Below the pieces are notes generated by a model that worked only from the letters and a program-made list of their open reading frames with translations, was not told where the DNA came from and ran no database searches. Position numbers and translations under genes: made by a program. This document shows positions 1 through 45,708 of a stretch of DNA of 45,708 nucleotides, in pieces (position 1 is the first letter of the stretch; every line of letters starts with the position of its first letter). Source of the DNA: a virus; IMG/VR virus record IMGVR_UViG_3300028832_000024. One strand, 5' to 3'.

Positions 1-127
1 CGGTAAGATCGCAACCCACGGAAATTTCCAAATTAAGCCCGTAATTCATCGTGTTAGTGTAACCGATCAACCCAATATCGAACATTTCGGGGTATTCGGC
101 GAAATCGGCGGGGGCGTGGATTCCGAA
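1..127. repeat. 127-nt direct terminal repeat, identical to 45582..45708 (closure overlap of a circular or terminally redundant genome)
   Basis: Bases 1..127 (cggtaagatcgcaacccacgg...gtggattccgaa) recur exactly at 45582..45708, at the extreme ends of the window. Confidence 0.95.
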
Positions 128-1027: not shown

Positions 1028-1082
1028 AAAAAGTTCGATTTCTTTACAGGTTTTCCGAACGTGCAAAAGTTCTTTACAAATG

Positions 1083-1116
1083 AAAAACGGGGACGGGGTT
1101 TTTGTTCCCGTCCCCG
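1083..1116 (-). terminator. Intrinsic terminator after the major capsid gene
   Basis: Minus-strand RNA CGGGGACGGG-AACAAAAAC-CCCGTCCCCG (10-bp GC stem, 1088..1097 / 1107..1116) followed by TTTTT (1083..1087). It lies 27 nt after the capsid stop codon. Confidence 0.8.
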
Positions 1117-17188: not shown

Positions 17189-17272
17189 TTTGGGTTGGGT
17201 TTCCTTATCAACTATTCCATTGCGGGCGGTTGTAGTCATTAAATCCCCTTTTGCTGATTTCGGAAACCCTTG

Positions 17273-17354
17273 TACCCCCGCCCGGACTTGAACCGGGACC
17301 CCTGTACGGGACGACATTTTGAGTGTCGCGCGGCTACCTTTTCGCCACGGGGGT
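17273..17354 (-). tRNA. tRNA-Leu(CAA): tRNA-Leu (anticodon CAA), type II with long variable arm
   Basis: Folded by hand. 7-bp acceptor stem ACCCCCG/CGGGGGT, D stem GCG/CGC with a GG loop, anticodon stem CGACA/TGTCG with loop CTCAAAA, 14-nt variable arm, T stem CCCGG/CCGGG with loop TTCAAGT. 82 nt; no encoded CCA. Confidence 0.85.
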
Positions 17355-17360
17355 ATTTTG

Positions 17361-17431
17361 TTGTTGCGTCCGGATTTGAACCGAAACTGTTGGAACCAAA
17401 ATCCAAAGTGCTACCGTTACACCACGCAACA
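17361..17431 (-). tRNA. tRNA-Gln(TTG): tRNA-Gln (anticodon TTG)
   Basis: 7-bp acceptor stem TGTTGCG/CGCAACA, D loop AACGGTA, anticodon stem TTGGA/TCCAA with loop TTTTGGT, T stem TTCGG/CCGGA with loop TTCAAAT. 71 nt. Confidence 0.8.
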
Positions 17432-17612: not shown

Positions 17613-17628
17613 TTCTCTTTGTCTTTAC

Positions 17629-17702
17629 CGGGAACCGGCCCGGTCCGTGGGTTACAACCTTAACCCGACACAAAGGTAAGGATAATTTTTATATTTCCAA
17701 AA
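17629..17702 (-). promoter_or_regulatory. Promoter P-D with conserved two-hairpin leader
   Basis: Minus strand: TTTTGG (17697..17702), 19-nt spacer, TACCTTTG (17671..17678), then hairpins GGGTTAAGGTTGTAACCC and CGGACCGGGCCGGTTCCCG. Confidence 0.65.
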
Positions 17703-17707
17703 GATTT

Positions 17708-25268: not shown

Positions 25269-25466
25269 TTAAATCAAATGTTGTTCTCTTACACACAAAT
25301 AACCGGCGTCGCCATATACCCAATATTTCACGATAGGGCGTCCGCTTGTTCCGATAGTAAGTTCCATTCGAACAACCTTGCCCGACGCGATAGACGGATT
25401 TTCACTATTACGCGGATATTTGAATTTCACGACGTCGCCGATTCCGTATTTGGTTTTAATTTCCAT
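25269..25466 (-). CDS. Hypothetical small protein (65 aa), first gene behind P-B
   Basis: ATG ORF 17 nt after the conserved leader. Confidence 0.5.
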   Translation of the reverse strand: MEIKTKYGIGDVVKFKYPRNSENPSIASGKVVRMELTIGTSGRPIVKYWVYGDAGYLCVREQHLI

Positions 25467-25483
25467 ATTGCTTTGTTTTTATT

Positions 25484-25559
25484 CGGGAACCCGCCCGATC
25501 GGTTGGATTCTTCCCCGAATCCACAGGCAAAGTTAGTAATTAATTTTTAACTACCAAAA
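25484..25559 (-). promoter_or_regulatory. Promoter P-B with two-hairpin leader
   Basis: Minus strand TTTTGG (25554..25559), 19-nt spacer, TAACTTTG (25528..25535), then hairpins GGATTCGGGGAAGAATCC and CGATCGGGCGGGTTCCCG. Confidence 0.6.
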
Positions 25560-25741
25560 TTTTTTCCATGATTTTTATAACTTTTTTTGTGCGCCCTGTT
25601 TGGTGGGCGTCAAAATAGGCATTTTCCAACCAACTTATTTTGTCGGAATTTTCGATTTAAGACACTTTCGGCGTTCGGACGATACCTATTTCATTTTCGG
25701 AAAGAAACGCGCTATACGGGCCGTTTTGCGGGCCAAACGGA

Positions 25742-25978
25742 CAAAGACAAAGATCGGCCGACGTTTCGCAACATTGGCCGACCCCTTTTCTTATCTTATG
25801 AAACCTTTTGGCACGACAAATATAGAAAAACCGCCCGTGTTTCGCAACAGGGACGGCCAAATAACACTAAAACGTAGTAACCTATGAATTCGTGGCAAAT
25901 ATATAAAAACGGGGCGTATTTCGCAACAAGCCCCGTTCCAACCACTTAAAACTATTTGATATGCACACTACAAAGATA
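25742..25978 (-). repeat. Array B: three tandem hairpin / T-tract / TATATTTG units (terminator-promoter modules)
   Basis: Hairpins at 25910..25935, 25831..25856 and 25754..25781, each with loop GTTGCGAAA(T/C). The stems differ between copies but remain complementary. -7 boxes lie at 25971..25978, 25896..25903 and 25817..25824, and the last unit is degenerate. Spacing is 77-79 nt. Confidence 0.7.
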
Positions 25979-25982
25979 GTGT

Positions 25983-26348
25983 TTATTTCATCGTTTCCGC
26001 GTTAAGGTGTTTATGGATCAGCGTATAAACGGCGGTAATCGCGGCTTTGTTTTCGTTGTATTCCTGTTGGGTGCAATCGGCCACGAAATTTTCGAATCGC
26101 TTGTATAAGTCTTGCAATTCGGTATGTGTCATTGTGTACCGACGGCAACCCGATTCGTCAATTACGCCCATTCTTTTGTATCCGTGTTCAACCATAACGG
26201 CGTCCGCGTCGCCAAAAGAAACATTTGCGCGAAATTTTTTAGATCCGTTTATATCGCGGTAAAATGCGTAATATAACGAACGTTTTCCGGCCTGTTTATC
26301 AATATACCCGTACTGTCGGGAAACGGGGTTGTAATAGTTGTATTTCAT
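25983..26348 (-). CDS. Hypothetical protein (121 aa)
   Basis: ATG ORF; no motif recognised. Confidence 0.5.
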   Translation of the reverse strand: MKYNYYNPVSRQYGYIDKQAGKRSLYYAFYRDINGSKKFRANVSFGDADAVMVEHGYKRMGVIDESGCRRYTMTHTELQDLYKRFENFVADCTQQEYNENKAAITAVYTLIHKHLNAETMK

Positions 26349-26392
26349 AACAGTTTGGATTTATGGCCCCGCTTGCGCGGGGCGTTATTTAT

Positions 26393-26638
26393 TTATGCAA
26401 GTTCGATTCCAACGTAAGTATATTCCAATTCTTGATCGTATTCGGAACCGTCAAATTTTTCGCCAAAGAAATTTTTGATTTTGGAAACTGCGTCGGTATT
26501 GTTGCCCTCAATTTCAACAGTAAGATAGATTCCGCCTTTTTTGCGACCCGCTAATACGGTAACGTCAACACTTGCACCCGCGATTGCACCAATTTTGGCG
26601 TTCATCATTTTTTTAAGAAGATCCGTTTTCATTTTCAT
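26393..26638 (-). CDS. Hypothetical protein (81 aa), first gene behind P-C
   Basis: ATG ORF 13 nt after the leader hairpin. Confidence 0.5.
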   Translation of the reverse strand: MKMKTDLLKKMMNAKIGAIAGASVDVTVLAGRKKGGIYLTVEIEGNNTDAVSKIKNFFGEKFDGSEYDQELEYTYVGIELA

Positions 26639-26651
26639 TGCGTTTTTTGTT

Positions 26652-26727
26652 CCGAAAACCCGTTCGGTCGGTCGGGTTAGTTCCTTAACCCACTACAAAG
26701 GTACGACAATTTTTCTAATTTCCAAAA
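26652..26727 (-). promoter_or_regulatory. Promoter P-C with two-hairpin leader
   Basis: Minus strand TTTTGG (26722..26727), 19-nt spacer, TACCTTTG (26696..26703), then GGGTTAAGGAACTAACCC (26674..26691) and CCGAACGGGTTTTCGG (26652..26667). Confidence 0.6.
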
Positions 26728-26833
26728 GTTTTTCCTATATTTTTCGAAAAAAGTTGCATTTTTTTTGATTTTCCCGAAATAATACGCCCCGATCGGGGTA
26801 TATTTGTATTGAACAACCCAAAAAATAATCGTT

Positions 26834-26977
26834 ATGCCTGTAATGAAAACGCAAGGTGGTTGGCGTTGGGGCCAATCCGGGAAAGTTTACCCGACAAAGG
26901 AACAGGCCGAAAGACAGGGACGCGCGATTTACGCGTCGGGGTACAGGGAAAAGCCCACGCAATCCAAAAAGAAATAG
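26834..26977 (+). CDS. Small basic protein (47 aa); the only plausible plus-strand gene
   Basis: MPVMKTQGGWRWGQSGKVYPTKEQAERQGRAIYASGYREKPTQSKKK. It is preceded by TATATTTG (26799..26806) and followed by hairpins and a plus-strand terminator. Divergent from P-C. Confidence 0.45.
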   Translation: MPVMKTQGGWRWGQSGKVYPTKEQAERQGRAIYASGYREKPTQSKKK

Positions 26978-27055
26978 GGAATTATCGGGTTTTCCGATTT
27001 TTCCCTATCTTTGTGGTGTCTTTTTACCACGTATCGCCCTTTCGGTAATTTGACG

Positions 27056-27100
27056 CCGCGCCCGCCCACGGATCAGTCCGCCGACGGGTGCGGTTTTTTT
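27056..27100 (+). terminator. Plus-strand intrinsic terminator at the convergence point
   Basis: CCGCGCCCG (27056..27064) pairs with CGGGTGCGG (27085..27093), 9 bp with one G-U pair, followed by TTTTTTT (27094..27100). It abuts the stop codon of the converging minus-strand gene. Confidence 0.6.
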
Positions 27101-27387
27101 CATCGAAGATTCGGCGTTATCTTCTTTCCCCCGCAAGATTCGGCCAACTGTACGATTATTGCGTCGTTTTCCGCGTCTTTCGGCGCGACAACTTGCGCGA
27201 TTTCGCCCATTATATCGAACAGGTAGTAATCGGGTCGCGGATCGGCCAACATTAGTTCATAATGGAAATATTCGGGGCCGGTGTCCGAAAGGAATGCGAA
27301 CGCCAAAACCTTATAATCGCGGACGCCCTCTTTTTCCATTACGGCGCGGTATTCTTCGCCCTTTATGCTTTTGCTATTCCGTGCCAT
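27100..27387 (-). CDS. Hypothetical early protein (95 aa)
   Basis: ATG ORF; last gene of the P-A operon. Confidence 0.5.
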   Translation of the reverse strand: MARNSKSIKGEEYRAVMEKEGVRDYKVLAFAFLSDTGPEYFHYELMLADPRPDYYLFDIMGEIAQVVAPKDAENDAIIVQLAESCGGKKITPNLR

Positions 27388-27610
27388 TGCTGAAAAAATC
27401 TTTGCGGTAAAACTGTATTGCCAATTGCGCGGCCCTGTTAGGCGTGGGCGCGGTTATTTGGTACGTCTTGCGCGGGGCGTGGTTGTTTTGCCCGAACCCA
27501 CGGCAAAGACAGTCGTAAATCGTGTATGGGTTCCCGCGTTCGGGTTTGTCCAACGGGCTTTGCGAAACCTCTACAACCGACAACGGATTTGAAAACCTGT
27601 ACTTTTGCAT
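27374..27610 (-). CDS. Hypothetical early protein (78 aa)
   Basis: ATG ORF in the co-directional block. Confidence 0.5.
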   Translation of the reverse strand: MQKYRFSNPLSVVEVSQSPLDKPERGNPYTIYDCLCRGFGQNNHAPRKTYQITAPTPNRAAQLAIQFYRKDFFSNGTE

Positions 27611-27613
27611 AAC

Positions 27614-27910
27614 CTATTTGTTTTTAATCCTTGATTCATAAACGGCCCGCCGTTCCCCGTCCTTGCGTGGTACGCCTTTTTTGGTCAGCGCAACGCCATA
27701 ATAGAAAATAGATATTTCCAGATAAACTGTAAACGATACCTGTTCAACGCGGATCGTATCCATTCCGTCGGTAACAATATCCCCTATCTTGTACTTTGCG
27801 TTTTCCGCAACATATTGTCTATATGCCAAATGTTTTGCGTTGTCCGCATCGTGTTCGATCGCCTTAATTCTTTCGTCTAATTCTTGCTTTGTCATAACTA
27901 AATAAGTCAT
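27614..27910 (-). CDS. Hypothetical early protein (98 aa)
   Basis: ATG ORF in the co-directional block. Confidence 0.5.
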   Translation of the reverse strand: MTYLVMTKQELDERIKAIEHDADNAKHLAYRQYVAENAKYKIGDIVTDGMDTIRVEQVSFTVYLEISIFYYGVALTKKGVPRKDGERRAVYESRIKNK

Positions 27911-28003
27911 TCAAAATTCAACAAATACCATAAAGAAAACGAACAATGCACCCAATACGGCCATTGGCCAACGTTCTTTAACGTCTTCCCAAATTTGTTT
28001 CAT
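27911..28003 (-). CDS. Mini membrane peptide (30 aa)
   Basis: Hand-translated: MKQIWEDVKERWPMAVLGALFVFFMVFVEF. Its stop abuts the next ATG (TGAATG). Confidence 0.3.
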   Translation of the reverse strand: MKQIWEDVKERWPMAVLGALFVFFMVFVEF

Positions 28004-28004
28004 A

Positions 28005-28247
28005 TTACATTGATTCTATTTGTTTAACAATCGTTCCCGGACGCCAAAAACCACGTTTTTTTGCGTATTTCGTGGCGGTTTTTTCATCTTTGGCGAAAAC
28101 CTGTTTTCCGTTTACGTCCCAACAGGGAAGATTATTTTTCGGGATTGGTTTTACATATACTTTTGACGTCCCCGTGTCAAACAATTGTTTATCGGCGGAC
28201 GCCGCAAGCATCGCCAACCCCGCTAATAATTTAAATTGTTTATACAT
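28005..28247 (-). CDS. Secreted or lipoprotein-like small protein (80 aa)
   Basis: N-terminal signal-like MYKQFKLLAGLAMLAASA. Confidence 0.45.
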   Translation of the reverse strand: MYKQFKLLAGLAMLAASADKQLFDTGTSKVYVKPIPKNNLPCWDVNGKQVFAKDEKTATKYAKKRGFWRPGTIVKQIESM

Positions 28248-28271
28248 AACTTTTTGATTTTATGGGACGGT

Positions 28272-28535
28272 TTACTGTCCCTGTATTTTTACTTTCTTAT
28301 GCGTTGCGAATGTATGCCCGAAAGCGGTAATTTCCGCGTGGCAAAGATTTTCGTACAGGAACGACAACATTGTATCATCGACGGGAATGCTTCCGATAAG
28401 AACGGGCCTTTTGTACGCAACAATAGCGGATATTAAAACGCTTGCCGTCTTGACTGTCAATTTGTCATATTCGGCGGAATAGGTTTCGCCCATTAACTTT
28501 TCAATGTAGTTCAATTGTTTTTCAGTTGCTTTCAT
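28272..28535 (-). CDS. Hypothetical early protein (87 aa from ATG 28535)
   Basis: First ATG (MKATEKQLNYIEKL...) of track ORF 28272..28625. Confidence 0.45.
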   Translation of the reverse strand: MKATEKQLNYIEKLMGETYSAEYDKLTVKTASVLISAIVAYKRPVLIGSIPVDDTMLSFLYENLCHAEITAFGHTFATHKKVKIQGQ

Positions 28536-28548
28536 AATTCGGGATTGA

Positions 28549-28782
28549 TTAAGCGGCGTAAAAAGAAATTTTGATACCACGACGTAATTTGCAAACGCAT
28601 TTATCATCAAGCGAACCGAACGCACGATCTAAAAGGCGGTTGCAAAGTTCCAAATCAGCGACGATTTTAACAAGCCCCGAAACGCCAACAAGCGTGTTAA
28701 TCTTTTTCCCGTCGAACAGGCCCGAAACCTTGATTTTGTAATTAGCGTTGATTTCGCGGGTGGTGTATTTAAGCGTTGCCAT
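28549..28782 (-). CDS. Hypothetical early protein (77 aa), first gene behind P-A
   Basis: ATG ORF 19 nt after the conserved leader. Confidence 0.5.
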   Translation of the reverse strand: MATLKYTTREINANYKIKVSGLFDGKKINTLVGVSGLVKIVADLELCNRLLDRAFGSLDDKCVCKLRRGIKISFYAA

Positions 28783-28801
28783 AACTGTTTGTTTTTTGTA
28801 T

Positions 28802-28876
28802 CGGGAATCGGCCCGATCCGTTGGGTTAGTTCCTTAACCCGCTACAAAGGTAGGTATTTATTTTTAATTACCAAAA
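28802..28876 (-). promoter_or_regulatory. Promoter P-A with two-hairpin leader
   Basis: Minus strand TTTTGG (28871..28876), 19-nt spacer, TACCTTTG (28845..28852), then GGGTTAAGGAACTAACCC (28823..28840) and CGGATCGGGCCGATTCCCG (28802..28820). Confidence 0.65.
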
Positions 28877-29035
28877 CTTTTTCCATAATTTTTGCAAAAA
28901 AAGTTCGAAAAAAGTTATTTTCGGCGATTTTTCGATTTGTGGCCATATTTCGTGGCGGACGGTAAGTTGTACCATTTTCGGGGGAAAGTGTCTTAAATCC
29001 AAAATAAACGCCCTTTGCGGGGACGATATGAACAA

Positions 29036-29339
29036 CGGCCACATTTCGCAACGGGGCCGCGTTCGATTGGTTAGTTTGTAAGAAAAGAAGATTATGATTC
29101 AATGCAAATATAATAAAAAACGGTCGCGTTTCACAACGGGACCGCCCTTTAAGCAATGAAAAAACTATTTCGTACGGCAAAGATACAAAAAACGACCGTA
29201 TTTCACAACACGGCCGTTTCTCTCTTAATCCTATAACCTATATACTGTTCGATGCAAATATAAATAAAACGGGTGGATTTCGCAACCGACCCGTTAGCAA
29301 ACATAATCAATTATGAGTATTTTAAGCGTTACAAATATA
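29036..29339 (-). repeat. Array A: four tandem hairpin / T-tract / TAT(A/C)TTTG units (terminator-promoter modules)
   Basis: Hairpins at 29270..29293, 29193..29216, 29121..29144 and 29036..29059, each with loop GTTG(C/T)GAAA(T/C) and covarying stems. -7 boxes lie at 29332..29339, 29255..29262, 29178..29185 and 29105..29112. Spacing is 72-85 nt. Confidence 0.7.
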
Positions 29340-29342
29340 CGA

Positions 29343-29957
29343 TTATTTTTCGATAACGACGTGTTCGACCCCTAAAATTTTGGTATGCGGGTTCTGGCTT
29401 ACCACGTCCACGCGCCGATCCTGTACGCGCTTCGTTTTCCACAGGAAACCCAAAAATCGCTTATACTTAACCGTTTCGGCCAACAACAGGGAATCCCGAT
29501 TGGCCAACGTTCCCGTAAACTGATCTTTGGTCAACAGTCCGTCAAAGTCGAACCACGCGTCCCCGCAATGGACCGCCACGGCGGGCGTAACGATCGAATC
29601 CCGTACAATGATAACCGTATCCCGTGGCGTGGCCTTTAAGTCAATGATCGTTTGCGATTGGGTCGTATTTACCGCCGATAAGTCCCTGTTGCGGGCTTTA
29701 AGTTCGCGGATCAATTCGGCGTCGTCGGCGCGGAATCGTTCGAATTCCTTTATTGTCAGTTGCAAGGATTCGACCCGCGCGGCGTTCATCGAATCGCGGA
29801 TCTTGAACAATTCCACGTCGGAAAGCAACGCGGCCGTATTCCCTTTGTACCTGTCGCGTTCGGCCGTCAACTGTTCAATTCTTTTGTTGGTCAGTATAAC
29901 GGCAATTGCGACCGCCACAATACAGGCGATCGCAATTAACAGTTTCCGCGCGTCCAT
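29343..29957 (-). CDS. Type II membrane-anchored coiled-coil protein (spanin-like candidate)
   Basis: From ATG 29957 (TAATG overlap): MDARKLLIAIACIVAVAIAVILT (TM anchor), then a coiled-coil RIEQLTAERDRYKGN...IKEFERFRADDAELIRELKARNRDL, then a globular C-terminus. Last gene of the lysis block. Confidence 0.4.
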   Translation of the reverse strand: MDARKLLIAIACIVAVAIAVILTNKRIEQLTAERDRYKGNTAALLSDVELFKIRDSMNAARVESLQLTIKEFERFRADDAELIRELKARNRDLSAVNTTQSQTIIDLKATPRDTVIIVRDSIVTPAVAVHCGDAWFDFDGLLTKDQFTGTLANRDSLLLAETVKYKRFLGFLWKTKRVQDRRVDVVSQNPHTKILGVEHVVIEK

Positions 29958-30325
29958 TATGCGCCGATATGGGTTTTGTCCGTACTGTTGTACGCCCAAC
30001 CGCTTTCGGAATGGTCGTAAGACACGGTTTCCACGTTGGCCGCGTCAGCGTAAGTAAGACACAATCCGCCGTTTTCCGCGTCTTTGTAGGAAACGACGTA
30101 CAAGTGTTGCGCGGTTCCTGTTTTCTTTGCCACTTTGTCGCCAACGTTCAGCGCGTCCAACTGTTCGTCGGTTAGCGCGGTAATGTCGGCAACCTCTAAC
30201 GGAAGCGCGGAACCCGCAAGGGCGGAAAGGATCGCGCCCAACGCGCCGCCCAAATCAATTTGGTTGCCCTGTCCGGCAATCTTTTCGGCGATCAACGCCA
30301 ATAATTCGTCCTGTTTCATATTCAC
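29957..30325 (-). CDS. Hypothetical protein (122 aa)
   Basis: ATG ORF within the lysis block; no motif recognised. Confidence 0.5.
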   Translation of the reverse strand: MNMKQDELLALIAEKIAGQGNQIDLGGALGAILSALAGSALPLEVADITALTDEQLDALNVGDKVAKKTGTAQHLYVVSYKDAENGGLCLTYADAANVETVSYDHSESGWAYNSTDKTHIGA

Positions 30326-30361: not shown

Positions 30362-30742
30362 TTATTTCCTTACAACCCCGCCCAATTTATCCGCCCATTT
30401 TTCAGTAAAAAACGAATAATAGGAACGCCCCCGCGACGGATTCCAATACCACGCCCACAATAGCGACGGAATGCCCACGACAAACAGGTATAAAGGCCCC
30501 AAATAAAGCGATTGGCGGGAATGGCCGTATTCGTGTCCCCAAGTGTCCGGATTCGACAAATACGGCCATTTTACGATAATTGTACGGCCCAACGAAATAC
30601 CGCCCTTAAATTTTCTATCAACAACGACGTTGACGCCACGGAACAGGATTGAACGTCCACGGTATATAACACGAAATGCAAGCCCGACAATATTTTGCGG
30701 GGCTTGCCATATCCAAAGCAATATTTCCCAAACTGTTTTCAT
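30362..30742 (-). CDS. Membrane protein with an HExxHxxQ zincin-like motif
   Basis: From ATG 30742 (ATGA overlap with the amidase stop): an N-terminal hydrophobic helix, WGHEYGHSRQS, then a second hydrophobic segment LYLGPLYLFVVGIPSLLWAWYW. Confidence 0.45.
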   Translation of the reverse strand: MKTVWEILLWIWQAPQNIVGLAFRVIYRGRSILFRGVNVVVDRKFKGGISLGRTIIVKWPYLSNPDTWGHEYGHSRQSLYLGPLYLFVVGIPSLLWAWYWNPSRGRSYYSFFTEKWADKLGGVVRK

Positions 30743-31227
30743 CGTTCCGCCGTGCAAATGGAAATCGGGAATTCGGCCTTTGCATCGAAACACGGGCAAA
30801 GTTTAATCCATTCGTTTTTTTCGATCGTCCCGTTTCCGTTCTTATCGGGGCTTGCGTCCCTGTGGCCGATAACTTCCTTAATCGGGTATTCGTCCATAAG
30901 ACGATAAACCAAGTCAACCAACGCTTTTTTTTGTTCGGGCGTCCGCGTGTCGGCGGGTTCCCCGTTTTCGTCAAGCCCGCCCACGTACACGATTCCGATT
31001 GAATGTTTGTTGTACGATTTCCCCGACAGGCCCGCAGTATTGCAATGCGCCCCGTCGCGGGAAAGAGGTCGGCCCGTTTCCACGGTCCCGTCCAAGTCAA
31101 CGACGTAGTTGTAGCCGATGCAAGCGAAACCGCGTTCTTTATGCATCTTGTCAATGTCGGAAGCCCGCAAGTCTTGGCCCGCGCGGGATGCCGTGCAATG
31201 GATTACGATAGCATCTATTGTTTTCAT
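30739..31227 (-). CDS. N-acetylmuramoyl-L-alanine amidase (Amidase_2 / PGRP-type endolysin)
   Basis: AIVIHCTA...DIDKMHKERGF..IGYNYVV...GAHC...HSIGIVYVGG...VIGHRD......CPCF is the typical T7-lysozyme-type motif order, including the Zn-ligand His/His/Cys positions. Confidence 0.85.
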   Translation of the reverse strand: MKTIDAIVIHCTASRAGQDLRASDIDKMHKERGFACIGYNYVVDLDGTVETGRPLSRDGAHCNTAGLSGKSYNKHSIGIVYVGGLDENGEPADTRTPEQKKALVDLVYRLMDEYPIKEVIGHRDASPDKNGNGTIEKNEWIKLCPCFDAKAEFPISICTAER

Positions 31228-45291: not shown

Positions 45292-45708
45292 CTAAACGGT
45301 ACGGTATTTTACGCCGTGGTTGTTGCATTGCAAACAAATACGATCCAATCCCCGCGTATCAATTGACAACGCCTTATACGCCTGTTTCAGTTCGTACCCC
45401 AAACCCGTTGCGCGGCCCGTCGGGTTTCCGTCCAATTCGTATAACAGTTCGTCGCGGGTAACGTTCACTTGATTACGGTTTACCCGAACGTCGGGGTTCA
45501 TCGCAATAGTGCGCAAGACGTTTGCCACAACCTGTTTTTGAATGACGGTCGCAAAGATTTGTCGTTGCGAAATAATAAAGTCGGTAAGATCGCAACCCAC
45601 GGAAATTTCCAAATTAAGCCCGTAATTCATCGTGTTAGTGTAACCGATCAACCCAATATCGAACATTTCGGGGTATTCGGCGAAATCGGCGGGGGCGTGG
45701 ATTCCGAA
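45292..45708 (-). CDS. C-terminal part of the 438-aa junction-spanning structural protein (unique part 45292..45581)
   Basis: Same reading frame as minus-strand 1..1027 through the terminal overlap. The Met at 45666 used by the track is internal. Confidence 0.75.
   Translation of the reverse strand, partial: FGIHAPADFAEYPEMFDIGLIGYTNTMNYGLNLEISVGCDLTDFIISQRQIFATVIQKQVVANVLRTIAMNPDVRVNRNQVNVTRDELLYELDGNPTGRATGLGYELKQAYKALSIDTRGLDRICLQCNNHGVKYRTV
45582..45708. repeat. Second copy of the 127-nt terminal repeat
   Basis: Identical to 1..127. Confidence 0.95.

What the first reader, a model, noticed from the sequence alone, without database searches (positions are those of the whole stretch)
29036..29339. 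Array A: four tandem units that read as both terminator and promoter, predicting a train of short non-coding RNAs
The array lies between the last lysis gene (stop at 29343) and early promoter P-A. It contains four units spaced 72-85 nt apart.

In minus-strand sense each unit is a 5-6 bp stem, the loop GTTG(C/T)GAAA(T/C), the stem complement, T4-6, then TAT(A/C)TTTG.

The stem sequences differ between copies but always stay complementary: CGGGT/ACCCG, CGGCCG/CGGTCG, CGGTC/GACCG and CGGCC/GGCCG. This covariation argues for selection on structure.

The loop TTG lies 20-21 nt upstream of the TAnnTTTG box, which is the Bacteroidota -33/-7 geometry. An extra box at 29332..29339 starts the series, and the fourth unit has a decayed box.

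The predicted products are RNAs of roughly 55-70 nt with no ATG. Each has a unique 35-45 nt 5' segment and the shared 3' hairpin. I know of no described phage element with this design. Possible roles include sRNA regulators or decoys, a sigma or RNA-polymerase sink, or an insulator between late and early transcription.
Basis: seen in the sequence. Interest (0 to 1): 0.85.

Follow-up and report, generated by a model that had tools for sequence, protein, structure and literature searches.

The report
Stacked terminator-promoter cassettes in a phage
Between the late and early genes of this roughly 45.6-kb Bacteroidota-type phage lie tandem 72-85-nt units, each a conserved terminator hairpin fused to a host-type promoter with no gene in between, so they should insulate the two gene blocks and probably release a series of about 60-nt non-coding RNAs, though no transcript has yet been observed.

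Summary
A covariance model finds exactly seven units in the window, four in array A and three in array B, at 39-51 bits. The next hit scores 16 bits.

It has an invariant top (G·Y, U-A, U-A closing a GNGA tetraloop) followed by a T-run. Across 34 distinct units from this phage and 28 related contigs, 92% of stem positions pair and compensatory changes are abundant.

Whenever a TAnnTTTG box follows a hairpin, the apical TTG lies exactly 20-21 nt upstream. Nearly every hairpin also has a box 26-44 nt upstream. The units are therefore ORF-less promoter-to-terminator mini-genes stacked head to tail.

The same composite module occurs in many other viral contigs, usually 4-30 nt before a gene start. 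It is almost absent from a sample of bacterial genomes.

The design is not unprecedented. T4-type "PeSL" cassettes are composite promoter/terminators.

Still open:
- No transcript evidence exists.
- The hairpin top stays invariant in units with no promoter behind it.
- The "unique" segments share a UUCAUA motif of unknown role.

The parts
29343..29999 (-). Last gene of the late/lysis block (218 aa, DUF6549 / phrog_14010). Its stop codon is 3 nt upstream of the first box.
   Evidence: An amidase lies at 30739-31227.
29332..29339 (-). P0: -7 box TATATTTG with no -33 TTG at the right spacing. Predicted start of RNA A1 (about 29325 to 29263, 63 nt).
   Evidence: A perfect box lies 3-9 nt after the stop codon in 23 of 29 family loci, and a near-box in 3 more.
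29257..29299 (-). Unit A1: hairpin 29268-29295 with a GCGA tetraloop, a T-run, and an overlapping -7 box P1 (29255-29262, TATATTTG). TTG-N20-TA.
   Evidence: 46.9 bits; -12.8 kcal/mol.
29180..29222 (-). Unit A2: hairpin with a GUGA tetraloop, T6, and -7 box P2 (29178-29185, TATCTTTG). TTG-N20-TA. Terminates predicted RNA A2 (about 62 nt).
   Evidence: 50.2 bits; -19 kcal/mol, z -6.6.
29108..29150 (-). Unit A3: hairpin with a GUGA tetraloop, T6, and -7 box P3 (29105-29112, TATATTTG). TTG-N21-TA. Terminates predicted RNA A3 (about 57 nt).
   Evidence: (45.1 bits).
29023..29065 (-). Unit A4: terminal hairpin with a GCGA tetraloop, a weak T-run (TTGTTCAT) and no box. Terminates predicted RNA A4 (about 68 nt).
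   Evidence: (42.8 bits).
29009..29025 (-). A further generic terminator-like hairpin (CGTCCCCGCAAAGGGCG followed by TTTATTTT). It may serve as a back-up terminator behind A4.
   Evidence: The homologous position in relatives is seen.
28853..29008 (-). Conserved spacer of unknown function between the array and the early promoter.
   Evidence: 63-74% identity across the family, where 4-fold sites of the flanking gene are only 33-48% identical.
28783..28874 (-). Strong early promoter P-A (TTG 28872-28874, N19, TACCTTTG 28845-28852) plus a structured leader upstream of the 77-aa early gene (28549-28782).
   Evidence: Three more copies of this module have -7 boxes at 26696-26703, 25528-25535 and 17671-17678.
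25971..25978 (-). Array B, first -7 box TATCTTTG, just after the stop of the 121-aa early gene (25983-26348).
25898..25940 (-). Unit B1: hairpin, T5, and box 25896-25903 (TATATTTG). TTG-N20-TA.
   Evidence: (51 bits).
25819..25861 (-). Unit B2: hairpin, T5, and box 25817-25824 (TATATTTG). TTG-N20-TA.
   Evidence: (51 bits).
25742..25785 (-). Unit B3: terminal hairpin with a poor T-run, followed by a one-mismatch near-box TGTCTTTG (25742-25749) at N19.
   Evidence: (39 bits). The sequence is read.

Best explanation
Array A, and its sister array B, is a stack of composite terminator-promoter cassettes read by the host's primary-sigma RNA polymerase.

**How one unit works.** Each unit is a strong intrinsic terminator: a 10-16 bp hairpin capped by a GNGA tetraloop, followed by a T-run. 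The apical TTG of that hairpin doubles as the -33 element of a TAnnTTTG (-7) promoter placed 20-21 nt downstream, overlapping the T-run.

**What the stack does.** The next hairpin follows after only about 30-45 nt and there is no ORF between. Each promoter can therefore only make a roughly 57-68-nt RNA, with an unstructured AU-rich 5' segment and the shared 3' hairpin.
- The stack seals the late/lysis operon off from the early operon (array A).
- It seals the first early operon off from the next one (array B).
- It emits a train of short early RNAs.

**Shown versus inferred.**
- Shown: the hairpin structure through covariation, the exact promoter geometry, conservation of the box-to-hairpin unit across the phage family, and use of the same module as a gene-proximal terminator/promoter in other phages.
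- Inferred: that both signals fire in vivo, and that the RNAs accumulate.
- Speculative: that the RNAs act in trans, for example through the recurrent UUCAUA anti-start-codon motif.
For: **Structure.** In 34 distinct units, 92.2% of stem cells pair against 68% in shuffles. 79 cells carry changes on both sides against 22 in shuffles. Sliding the 3' partners by 1-3 columns drops pairing to 36-50%. Folding energies are -12.8 to -20 kcal/mol, with z-scores of -2.7 to -6.6.

**Discreteness.** The window holds 7 hits at 39-51 bits, then 16 bits. Relatives score >= 35 bits or <= 22.5 bits, with nothing between.

**Promoter geometry.**
- TTG-to-TA spacing is 20 nt in 41 units and 21 nt in 13, out of 54 units with a downstream box.
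- The phage's own four strong promoters use TTG-N19-TAnnTTTG.
- The -7/-33 consensus is described in PMC7366714.

**Unit architecture.**
- A box lies 26-44 nt upstream of almost every hairpin stem.
- A box lies 3-9 nt after the DUF6549 stop codon in 23 of 29 loci.
- Relatives that lack the motif hairpin still have a box, then about 45-80 nt, then a generic terminator.

**Module used for real genes.** In other viral contigs an ORF starts 4-30 nt after the box, and the upstream ORF ends 12-60 nt before the hairpin.

**Phage specificity.** 42 of 84 distinct pattern sites in viral contigs form the hairpin, against 3 of 118 in a sample of prokaryotic genomes.

**Predicted RNAs.** They are 57-68 nt long, with open 5' segments and no credible ORF.
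Against: - There are no expression data of any kind.
- P0 has no -33 TTG.
- The last unit of each array in this window has a poor T-run (TTGTTCAT, ATCTTTG), so termination there may be leaky.
- The hairpin top is invariant even where no promoter follows, which this model does not explain.
- The 5' segments turn over fast, and unit number varies from 0 to 4 among relatives.
- Cultured relatives (Alistipes AS73P1, Bacteroides BKO1-3, Parabacteroides PDS1) have only one generic terminator and no box, so the array is dispensable for this type of phage.
- No target complementarity was found inside the phage beyond what shuffles give.
Confidence: 0.6

Rival explanations
1. **Pure insulator.** The arrays are simply multiple terminators in series that stop late-operon read-through from entering the early operons. 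The embedded promoters and their short transcripts would be by-products, or would only serve to restart transcription with attenuation.
For: - The arrays sit exactly at operon boundaries.
- The ancestral state in cultured relatives is a single terminator at this position.
- The 5' segments evolve fast.
- Short, prematurely terminated transcripts are common by-products in other phages (PMC10914365).
Against: - An insulator needs no promoters. Yet the boxes are perfect consensus, sit at exact spacing, and are conserved. This includes a box placed between the stop codon and the first terminator in 23 of 29 loci.
- TTCATA is enriched in the 5' segments: 17 of 61 against 1.2 expected.
Confidence: 0.2
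2. **PeSL-like recombination scaffold.** The cassettes would mainly be portable linker sequences at which genes are inserted, lost or swapped. The ORF-less arrays would be empty docking sites or leftovers.
For: - PeSLs in T4-type phages are composite promoter/terminators that mediate modular shuffling (PMC2839356, PMC4122927).
- Unit number varies from 0 to 4 among relatives.
- L017 has a split NUMOD4/HNH-type endonuclease ORF inserted between two boxes. L012/L013 have two extra ORFs in front of the array.
- In other phages the module flanks ORFs.
Against: - Recombination between two cassettes should leave one chimeric cassette, not a series with different 30-45-nt inserts.
- The shared sequence is only about 25 nt, because the stems differ, so there is little homology to recombine on.
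- This window holds only 7 copies, all in two arrays, and none flanks an early ORF.
Confidence: 0.15
3. **Protein-recognition hairpins.** The invariant GUUG-N-GAAA top would be bound by a phage or host protein. That protein might act as an anti-terminator or terminator enhancer (in the manner of boxB/N or Nun), or the RNAs might act as a decoy or sponge for an RNA-binding protein.
For: - The hairpin top is invariant in 34 of 34 distinct units while the stems vary freely.
- This also holds in at least 11 lineages of terminal units with no promoter behind them.
- Model scores are bimodal, with no intermediates.
- From general knowledge, GNRA-type loops are known protein handles, as in lambda boxB.
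Against: - No candidate binding protein was identified. The neighbouring early proteins have no Pfam or PHROG function.
- The motif was the search key, so its invariance is partly ascertainment.
- Variants with CTTG or TTTG before a GTGA loop exist in other phages, which fits a TTG-plus-tetraloop rule rather than a strict protein site.
Confidence: 0.12
4. **DNA-level element.** The arrays would be replication-origin iterons, primer-RNA promoters or packaging signals, rather than an RNA-producing array.
For: - The repeats are regularly spaced, near replication genes in the case of array B.
- A well-conserved adjacent spacer has no known role.
- From general knowledge, T7 and T4 origins use promoters.
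Against: - Compensatory stem changes point to a single-stranded hairpin, not a duplex protein-binding site.
- The T-run and box are strand-specific and co-oriented with all genes.
- Contig ends in relatives do not coincide with the array.
- Iterons are normally near-identical in sequence.
Confidence: 0.05
5. **Small proteins or CRISPR-like array.** The units would encode small proteins on either strand, or would form a CRISPR-like or anti-CRISPR repeat array.
For: - ATG-initiated ORFs of 14-29 codons can be drawn on the plus strand of most units (read).
- The period of 72-85 nt, with a hairpin repeat and a variable insert, superficially resembles repeat-spacer units.
Against: - Plus-strand ORFs read the conserved box in three different frames, vary from 3 to 29 codons, and lose their ATG in L003.
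- The only minus-strand ATG ORF would need read-through of a terminator.
- The repeats are only 64-79% identical, with freely varying stems.
- There is no Rfam match.
Confidence: 0.03

Closest known systems
PeSLs (promoter-early stem-loops) of T4-type phages (Arbiol et al. 2010, PMC2839356; Comeau et al. 2014, PMC4122927)
   Same: Both are short intergenic cassettes that combine a host primary-sigma promoter with a stem-loop terminator. In both, the stem-loop may overlap the promoter boxes. Both are repeated within a phage genome and sit at the borders of early transcription units. Both are associated with indels.
   Different: - PeSLs use sigma-70 -35/-10 boxes, and the stem-loop position varies across five sub-classes. 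Here the promoter is the Bacteroidota -33/-7 type and the hairpin top always carries the -33 TTG at N20-21.
- PeSLs flank ORFans. Here the cassettes are stacked with only 30-45 nt and no ORF between them.
- PeSL promoter and terminator activity was measured experimentally. Here it was not.
Repeat-embedded promoters of type II-C CRISPR arrays (reported for Flavobacterium in PMC10309648; Neisseria and Campylobacter from general knowledge)
   Same: Both are tandem arrays in which every repeat carries its own promoter. Each unit can therefore yield an RNA with a different 5' part and a shared 3' part.
   Different: CRISPR repeats are near-identical, have no terminator in each unit, sit next to cas genes, and carry spacers that match invaders. 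None of this applies here: identity is 64-79%, the stems vary, a T-run follows every hairpin, and there are no cas genes.
Canonical intergenic sRNA genes of Bacteroides (own transcription start plus Rho-independent terminator, e.g. GibS; Ryan et al. 2020, PMC7366714)
   Same: Both have a TAnnTTTG promoter, a single-stranded 5' region, a 3' intrinsic terminator and no ORF. This matches the paper's criterion for a high-confidence sRNA.
   Different: Those are host genes, occur singly, are longer and have been validated. Here the genes are phage-borne, only about 60 nt long, arranged head to tail with overlapping signals, and untested.
Short terminated transcripts from phage promoters (lambda 6S/oop RNA from general knowledge; StxS, PMC7547250; 5'UTR premature-termination ncRNAs of Pseudomonas phages, PMC10914365)
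   Same: In both, a constitutive or early phage promoter is followed closely by a terminator, giving an abundant short RNA. Read-through may be regulated.
   Different: Those are single units upstream of a gene whose expression depends on read-through. Here there are several units in series, and the downstream operon has its own stronger promoter.
Lambda-type nut/boxB hairpins
   Same: Both are small hairpins with a GNRA-like loop whose top is sequence-conserved while the context varies. Both lie at the start of early transcription units.
   Different: BoxB is not itself a terminator, is 15 nt long and is bound by N. No N-like protein or boxA is evident here. This is a resemblance only and was not tested.

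Membership tests
Intrinsic (Rho-independent) terminator | A stable GC-rich hairpin immediately followed by a U/T-run on the transcribed strand | tested here: met
   Folding energies are -12.8 to -20 kcal/mol. T4-T6 follows A1-A3 and B1-B2. The T-run is weak in A4 and B3. Covariation supports the stem.
Bacteroidota primary-sigma promoter | A TAnnTTTG -7 box with a TTG/TTTG element around -33 (PMC7366714) | tested here: met
   Perfect boxes follow A1-A3 and B1-B2 with TTG at N20-21. P0 and the first array B box lack a -33 element. A4 has no box and B3 has a one-mismatch box. The phage's own strong promoters use N19.
Bacteroidota primary-sigma promoter | Transcription actually initiates downstream of the box | not testable with these tools
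   No transcriptome data are available. There is indirect support: in other phages an ORF starts 4-30 nt after the same module.
PeSL (T4-type composite promoter/terminator cassette) | One short intergenic cassette combining a host-consensus promoter and a stem-loop terminator | tested here: met
   The definition is taken from PMC2839356.
PeSL (T4-type composite promoter/terminator cassette) | Sigma-70 -35/-10 promoter with an AT-rich upstream region, in T4-like myoviruses | tested here: not met
   The promoter type here is -33/-7. The genome is about 45.6 kb and related to siphovirus-type Bacteroidales phages. It is an analogue, not a member.
PeSL (T4-type composite promoter/terminator cassette) | Flanks ORFans in hyperplastic regions and mediates their insertion, deletion or exchange | tested here: inconclusive
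   No unit in this window flanks an ORF. Copy number varies and genes are inserted next to boxes in L012 and L017. The module does flank ORFs in other phages.
CRISPR array | Near-identical direct repeats, spacers of uniform length and adjacent cas genes | tested here: not met
   The repeats are 64-79% identical. No cas-like neighbours were found. Every unit has its own terminator.
Any Rfam RNA family | A score at or above the family's gathering threshold | tested here: not met
   Only two tRNAs pass the threshold in the window. In 25400-29400 the best sub-threshold hits score 14.7-26.4 bits against thresholds of 34-59.
Trans-acting base-pairing sRNA | A conserved single-stranded seed with complementary targets | tested here: inconclusive
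   The 5' segments are open and TTCATA is enriched. However, the best duplexes with the phage's own start regions are no better than shuffles. The host genome is unknown.

The most novel reading that the evidence does not exclude
The units would be a previously undescribed family of phage early small RNAs. The GNGA-capped 3' hairpin with its invariant G.Y/U-A/U-A top would be a recognition or stability handle, which would explain why it is conserved even without a promoter behind it. The AU-rich 5' segments carry anti-start-codon seeds such as UUCAUA and UUUUUUCAUAGGUU, which are complementary to start regions of the AACCUAUGAAAAAA type. These would pair with translation-initiation regions of host or phage mRNAs, in a phylum that lacks Shine-Dalgarno sequences. 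The arrays would then be expandable batteries of such guides, evolving quickly with the host.
Probability: 0.2. Interest if true: 0.85.

Novelty: new variant of a known kind. Interest (0 to 1): 0.6.

Why it matters
Transcription signals of Bacteroidota phages are almost unmapped. This locus gives a compact, sequence-defined module of roughly 45 nt that should be both a strong terminator and a promoter in Bacteroidales. That is useful for annotating gut and rumen phage genomes and as a genetic part.

If the stacked units do release RNAs, they would be the first phage-encoded small-RNA arrays described for this phylum. They would also offer a tractable case of genes whose 3' terminator is the next gene's promoter element.

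The hairpin top that stays invariant without a promoter, and the recurrent anti-start-codon motif, are concrete and testable leads. If the units turn out to be only an insulator, the finding is a tidy but modest piece of phage genome architecture.

Tried and rejected
- **Rfam.** Searches at gathering and permissive thresholds found only tRNAs and sub-threshold terminator look-alikes.
- **tRNA/tmRNA scan.** Two tRNAs were found elsewhere in the window.
- **Antisense targets inside the phage.** Short-word BLAST found exact matches of at most 11 nt and imperfect ones of at most 18 nt, all at chance level (E >= 0.5). Duplex energies against 68 start regions were no better than shuffles.
- **Small ORFs on both strands.** Rejected because of inconsistent frames, variable lengths and an ATG lost in a relative.
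- **CRISPR-like or type III antitoxin-like repeats.** Rejected because repeat identity is only 64-79% and the stems vary.
- **A general host promoter/terminator design.** Rejected because only 3 of 118 pattern sites in a sample of prokaryotic genomes form the hairpin, against 42 of 84 in viral contigs.
- **Cultured relatives.** They have a different single terminator and no box, so no experimental system carries the array.
- **Literature.** Searches for the motif itself and for Bacteroides phage intergenic stem-loops found nothing relevant.
- **Neutral-rate comparison.** This was inconclusive, because the flanking genes are mosaic. Against L001, 4-fold identity is 0.73 upstream and 0.95 downstream.
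- **Tandem-unit scan of viral contigs.** ORF-less arrays are essentially confined to this phage family. L269-L272 were false positives.
Full report
**Setting**

The first 127 nt of the window equal its last 127 nt, so it is a complete phage genome of about 45,581 bp. Nearly all long ORFs lie on the minus strand.

Read in the direction of transcription, the region is organised as follows:
- An amidase gene at 30739-31227.
- Two small ORFs.
- A 218-aa DUF6549/phrog_14010 gene at 29343-29999.
- A 560-nt gene-free stretch that contains array A.
- A run of small genes without known function, starting with a 77-aa phrog_32997 gene at 28549-28782.
- A second gene-free stretch with array B, at 25742-25978.
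- Replication-type genes, including an exonuclease and a replication initiator.

The closest cultured relatives infect Alistipes, Bacteroides and Parabacteroides.

Yes.
- The repeat finder gives four copies of a 33-nt unit at 29028-29294, spaced 85, 72 and 77 nt apart.
- GTTGYGAAA occurs 10 times against 2.35 expected, and seven copies lie in the two arrays.
- I built a covariance model from 34 distinct units and ran it over the whole window without filters. It returns exactly the seven units at 39-51 bits. The next hit scores 16 bits.
- Seven of the eleven minus-strand TAT[AC]TTTG octamers of the genome lie within the two arrays, which together cover about 0.6 kb.

**Anatomy**

It has an outer stem of 6-9 bp and usually a 1x1 mismatch. 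The inner stem is G·Y, U-A, U-A. The cap is a GCGA or GUGA tetraloop. Folding energies are -12.8 to -20 kcal/mol.

A T-run follows:
- T4-T6 in A1-A3 and in B1-B2.
- Weak in the last unit of each array.

In A1-A3 and B1-B2 a perfect TAnnTTTG box overlaps the end of the T-run. A further perfect box lies 3 nt after the DUF6549 stop codon (29332-29339). Another lies just after the stop of the gene preceding array B (25971-25978).

**Comparative evidence for the hairpin**

The DUF6549 protein retrieved 28 related viral contigs. At the same position they carry 0-4 units.

Thirty-four distinct units align without gaps.
- G14, T15, T16, G17, G19, A20, A21 and A22 are invariant, while the outer stem varies freely.
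- On the 12-pair structure, 92.2% of cells pair, against 68% in shuffles.
- 79 cells carry changes on both sides, against 22 in shuffles.
- Nine of the 12 pairs show double changes.
- Sliding the 3' partners by 1-3 columns drops pairing to 36-50%.

One caveat applies. The units were collected using the apical motif and a folding filter, so the percentage paired is somewhat inflated. The diversity of pair types is not affected.

**Comparative evidence for the promoter**

- In 77 distinct units from all loci, 54 have a downstream box. The distance from the apical TTG to the TA of the box is 20 nt in 41 units and 21 nt in 13, with no other value.
- The phage's own four strong promoters have TTG-N19-TAnnTTTG. 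Their -7 boxes are at 28845-28852, 26696-26703, 25528-25535 and 17671-17678.
- The -7 and -33 consensus of the Bacteroidetes primary sigma factor is summarised in PMC7366714.
- I scanned IMG/VR for GTTGYGAAAY-N14/15-TATMTTTG and found 118 stretches. Of 84 distinct sites held, 42 form a hairpin of at least 9 bp. In a sample of prokaryotic genomes only 3 of 118 do.
- In the unrelated viral contigs the box is typically followed by an ORF start after 4-30 nt. The hairpin is preceded by the end of an ORF 12-60 nt upstream.

The module is thus used as an ordinary terminator-plus-promoter between genes in other phages. This is the best indirect evidence that both halves work.

Hairpins with CTTG or TTTG before a GTGA loop also occur in front of boxes. 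A few GC-rich terminators without TTG do too. The rule seems to be that the TTG of the -33 element is placed so that its G opens a GNRA tetraloop.

**Why short RNAs are predicted**

Almost every hairpin has a box 26-44 nt upstream of its stem. This includes the only hairpin of single-unit relatives.
- A perfect box lies 3-9 nt after the DUF6549 stop codon in 23 of 29 loci, and a one-mismatch box in three more.
- Relatives that lack the motif hairpin still have a box, then 45-80 nt, then a generic terminator.
- Seven relatives share a conserved 65-70-nt unit with its own terminator and a compensatory stem change in L008.

A promoter placed between a stop codon and that operon's terminator has no product other than a short RNA. 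Selection on these promoters therefore implies selection on the RNA, or on polymerase binding as such.

Assuming a start about 6 nt after the box, the seven RNAs of this window would be 57-68 nt long. Each would have an open 25-35-nt 5' part and the 3' hairpin. This matches the sRNA-gene criterion used for Bacteroides, namely an own transcription start plus an intrinsic terminator (PMC7366714).

The step from signals to actual transcripts is inference. I had no transcript data.

**What the promoter model does not explain**

First, the hairpin top is just as invariant in units that have no box behind them.
- These include A4, B3 and the single units of L009/L022, L014, L015, L018 and L026.
- They also include the second-site units of L007, L010, L017, L026 and L028.
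- In L007 the short unit starts after a generic terminator without TTG and ends in a motif hairpin with no promoter downstream.
- Model scores are bimodal, at >= 35 or <= 22.5 bits, with no decayed intermediates.

Some second constraint acts on the top. It could be RNA stability, a binding partner, or something else.

Second, the "unique" segments are not fully unique.
- TTCATA occurs in 17 of 61 segments, against 1.2 in shuffles.
- A sub-family shares AAUAGUUUUUUCAUAGGU.
- The reverse complement looks like a start region (AACCUAUGAAAAAA).
- However, plus-strand ORFs are not conserved.
- No phage start region pairs better than with shuffled RNAs.

I record this as an unexplained motif. The anti-start-codon idea is speculation.

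**Evolutionary behaviour**

- Unit number varies from 0 to 4 among relatives.
- ORF-less tandem arrays are essentially restricted to this phage family.
- Genes have been inserted next to the boxes in L012/L013 and L017. The L017 insert is a split NUMOD4/HNH-like endonuclease ORF, an assignment made by eye from the translation.
- The cultured relatives AS73P1, BKO1-3 and PDS1 have a single different terminator and no box.
- The roughly 170-nt spacer between the array and the early promoter is better conserved (63-74%) than the array itself. It is also better conserved than 4-fold sites of the upstream gene, which are 33-48% identical.

The array is thus a fluid, dispensable addition in front of a more constrained regulatory region.

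**Comparison with known systems**

The closest described kind is the PeSL of T4-type phages. A PeSL is a short cassette that joins a sigma-70 early promoter to a stem-loop terminator. The stem-loop may lie between or over the promoter boxes. Both activities were shown with reporters, and a role in modular shuffling was proposed (PMC2839356; PMC4122927).

The present units work like PeSLs but are not members of that family:
- The promoter type differs.
- The coupling between hairpin and promoter is fixed.
- The units are stacked without ORFs.

Other partial analogues are:
- Repeat-embedded promoters of type II-C CRISPR arrays (PMC10309648).
- Short terminated phage transcripts (PMC7547250; PMC10914365).
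- Canonical Bacteroides sRNA genes (PMC7366714).

No Rfam family matches.

**Verdict**

The terminator-plus-promoter reading is well supported. The train of RNAs is a sound but untested inference. A trans function for the RNAs is open.

I rate this a new variant of a known kind, namely the composite terminator/promoter cassette. Interest is moderate to fairly high, because of the stacked ORF-less arrangement, the phage-specific invariant hairpin top, and the direct testability of the model.

Noticed in passing
window 1-127 and 45582-45708: The first 127 nt are identical to the last 127 nt. The window is therefore a complete circular or terminally redundant assembly of about 45,581 bp.
   Followed up: yes
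window 28783-28880, 26650-26730, 25470-25565, 17615-17705 (minus strand): There are four copies of a strong promoter-plus-leader module. Each has an A/T-rich upstream region, TTTTGG-N19-TA(C/A)CTTTG, a GGGTTAAGGnnnTAACCC hairpin, a second GC-rich hairpin (GACCGGGCCGGTTCCCGG) and then the start codon. Only two of the four have a hairpin array upstream. The leader is 63-85% identical across the family at the array-A copy.
   Followed up: partly
window 28853-29008 (paralogue at about 25560-25740): A spacer of about 170 nt between the array and the early promoter (containing ...gtgtcttaaatcgaa...) is 63-74% identical across relatives. Four-fold sites of the flanking gene are only 33-48% identical in the same relatives. 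Its function is unknown.
   Followed up: partly
L005, L007, L008, L010, L016, L017, L027, L028, about 80-170 nt after the DUF6549 stop (e.g. L007 4630-4710): A conserved short unit of about 65-70 nt has its own -7 box, a 5' hairpin with a compensatory change in L008, and a different terminator (ccgtcccgattggggcgg followed by a T-run). It looks like a small-RNA gene. No Rfam match was found.
   Followed up: partly
5' segments of the units, e.g. window 29307-29312, 29092-29097, 25881-25886, 25795-25800: The motif TTCATA (UUCAUA in the RNA) recurs 7-24 nt after the box. It occurs in 17 of 61 distinct segments against 1.2 expected. A sub-family shares AAUAGUUUUUUCAUAGGU. The reverse complement resembles a start-codon region.
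   Followed up: partly
window 26639-27099: A 460-nt gap without a minus-strand gene holds a plus-strand hairpin directly followed by a plus-strand TATATTTG box (26786-26806), a second plus-strand box at 27006-27013, and plus-strand ORFs of 65-79 aa. This could be the only plus-strand transcription unit of the early region.
   Followed up: no
L017 4777-5328; L012/L013 4555-5147: L017 carries an endonuclease-like ORF split in two (34 + 148 aa, with NUMOD4/HNH-type motifs judged by eye). It is inserted between the post-stop box and the next box. L012/L013 carry two extra ORFs (48 and 146 aa) between the DUF6549 gene and the array. The boundary appears to be an insertion hot spot.
   Followed up: partly
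L040, L044, L064, L077, L079, L081, L090, L142 (viral contigs): In other phages the same hairpin-plus-box module is followed by an ATG only 4-18 nt after the box. This implies leaderless or very short-leader mRNAs.
   Followed up: partly
window 17272-17431 (minus strand): Two adjacent tRNA genes, tRNA-Gln(UUG) and tRNA-Leu(CAA), lie just downstream of the small gene driven by the fourth promoter/leader module.
   Followed up: no
window 1075-1116 (minus strand): A generic terminator-like hairpin (ggggacggg...ccccgtcccc followed by TTTTT) is the best non-array hit of the hairpin model, at 16 bits. In this region a 399-aa plus-strand ORF and a 372-aa minus-strand ORF overlap (1080-2279).
   Followed up: no
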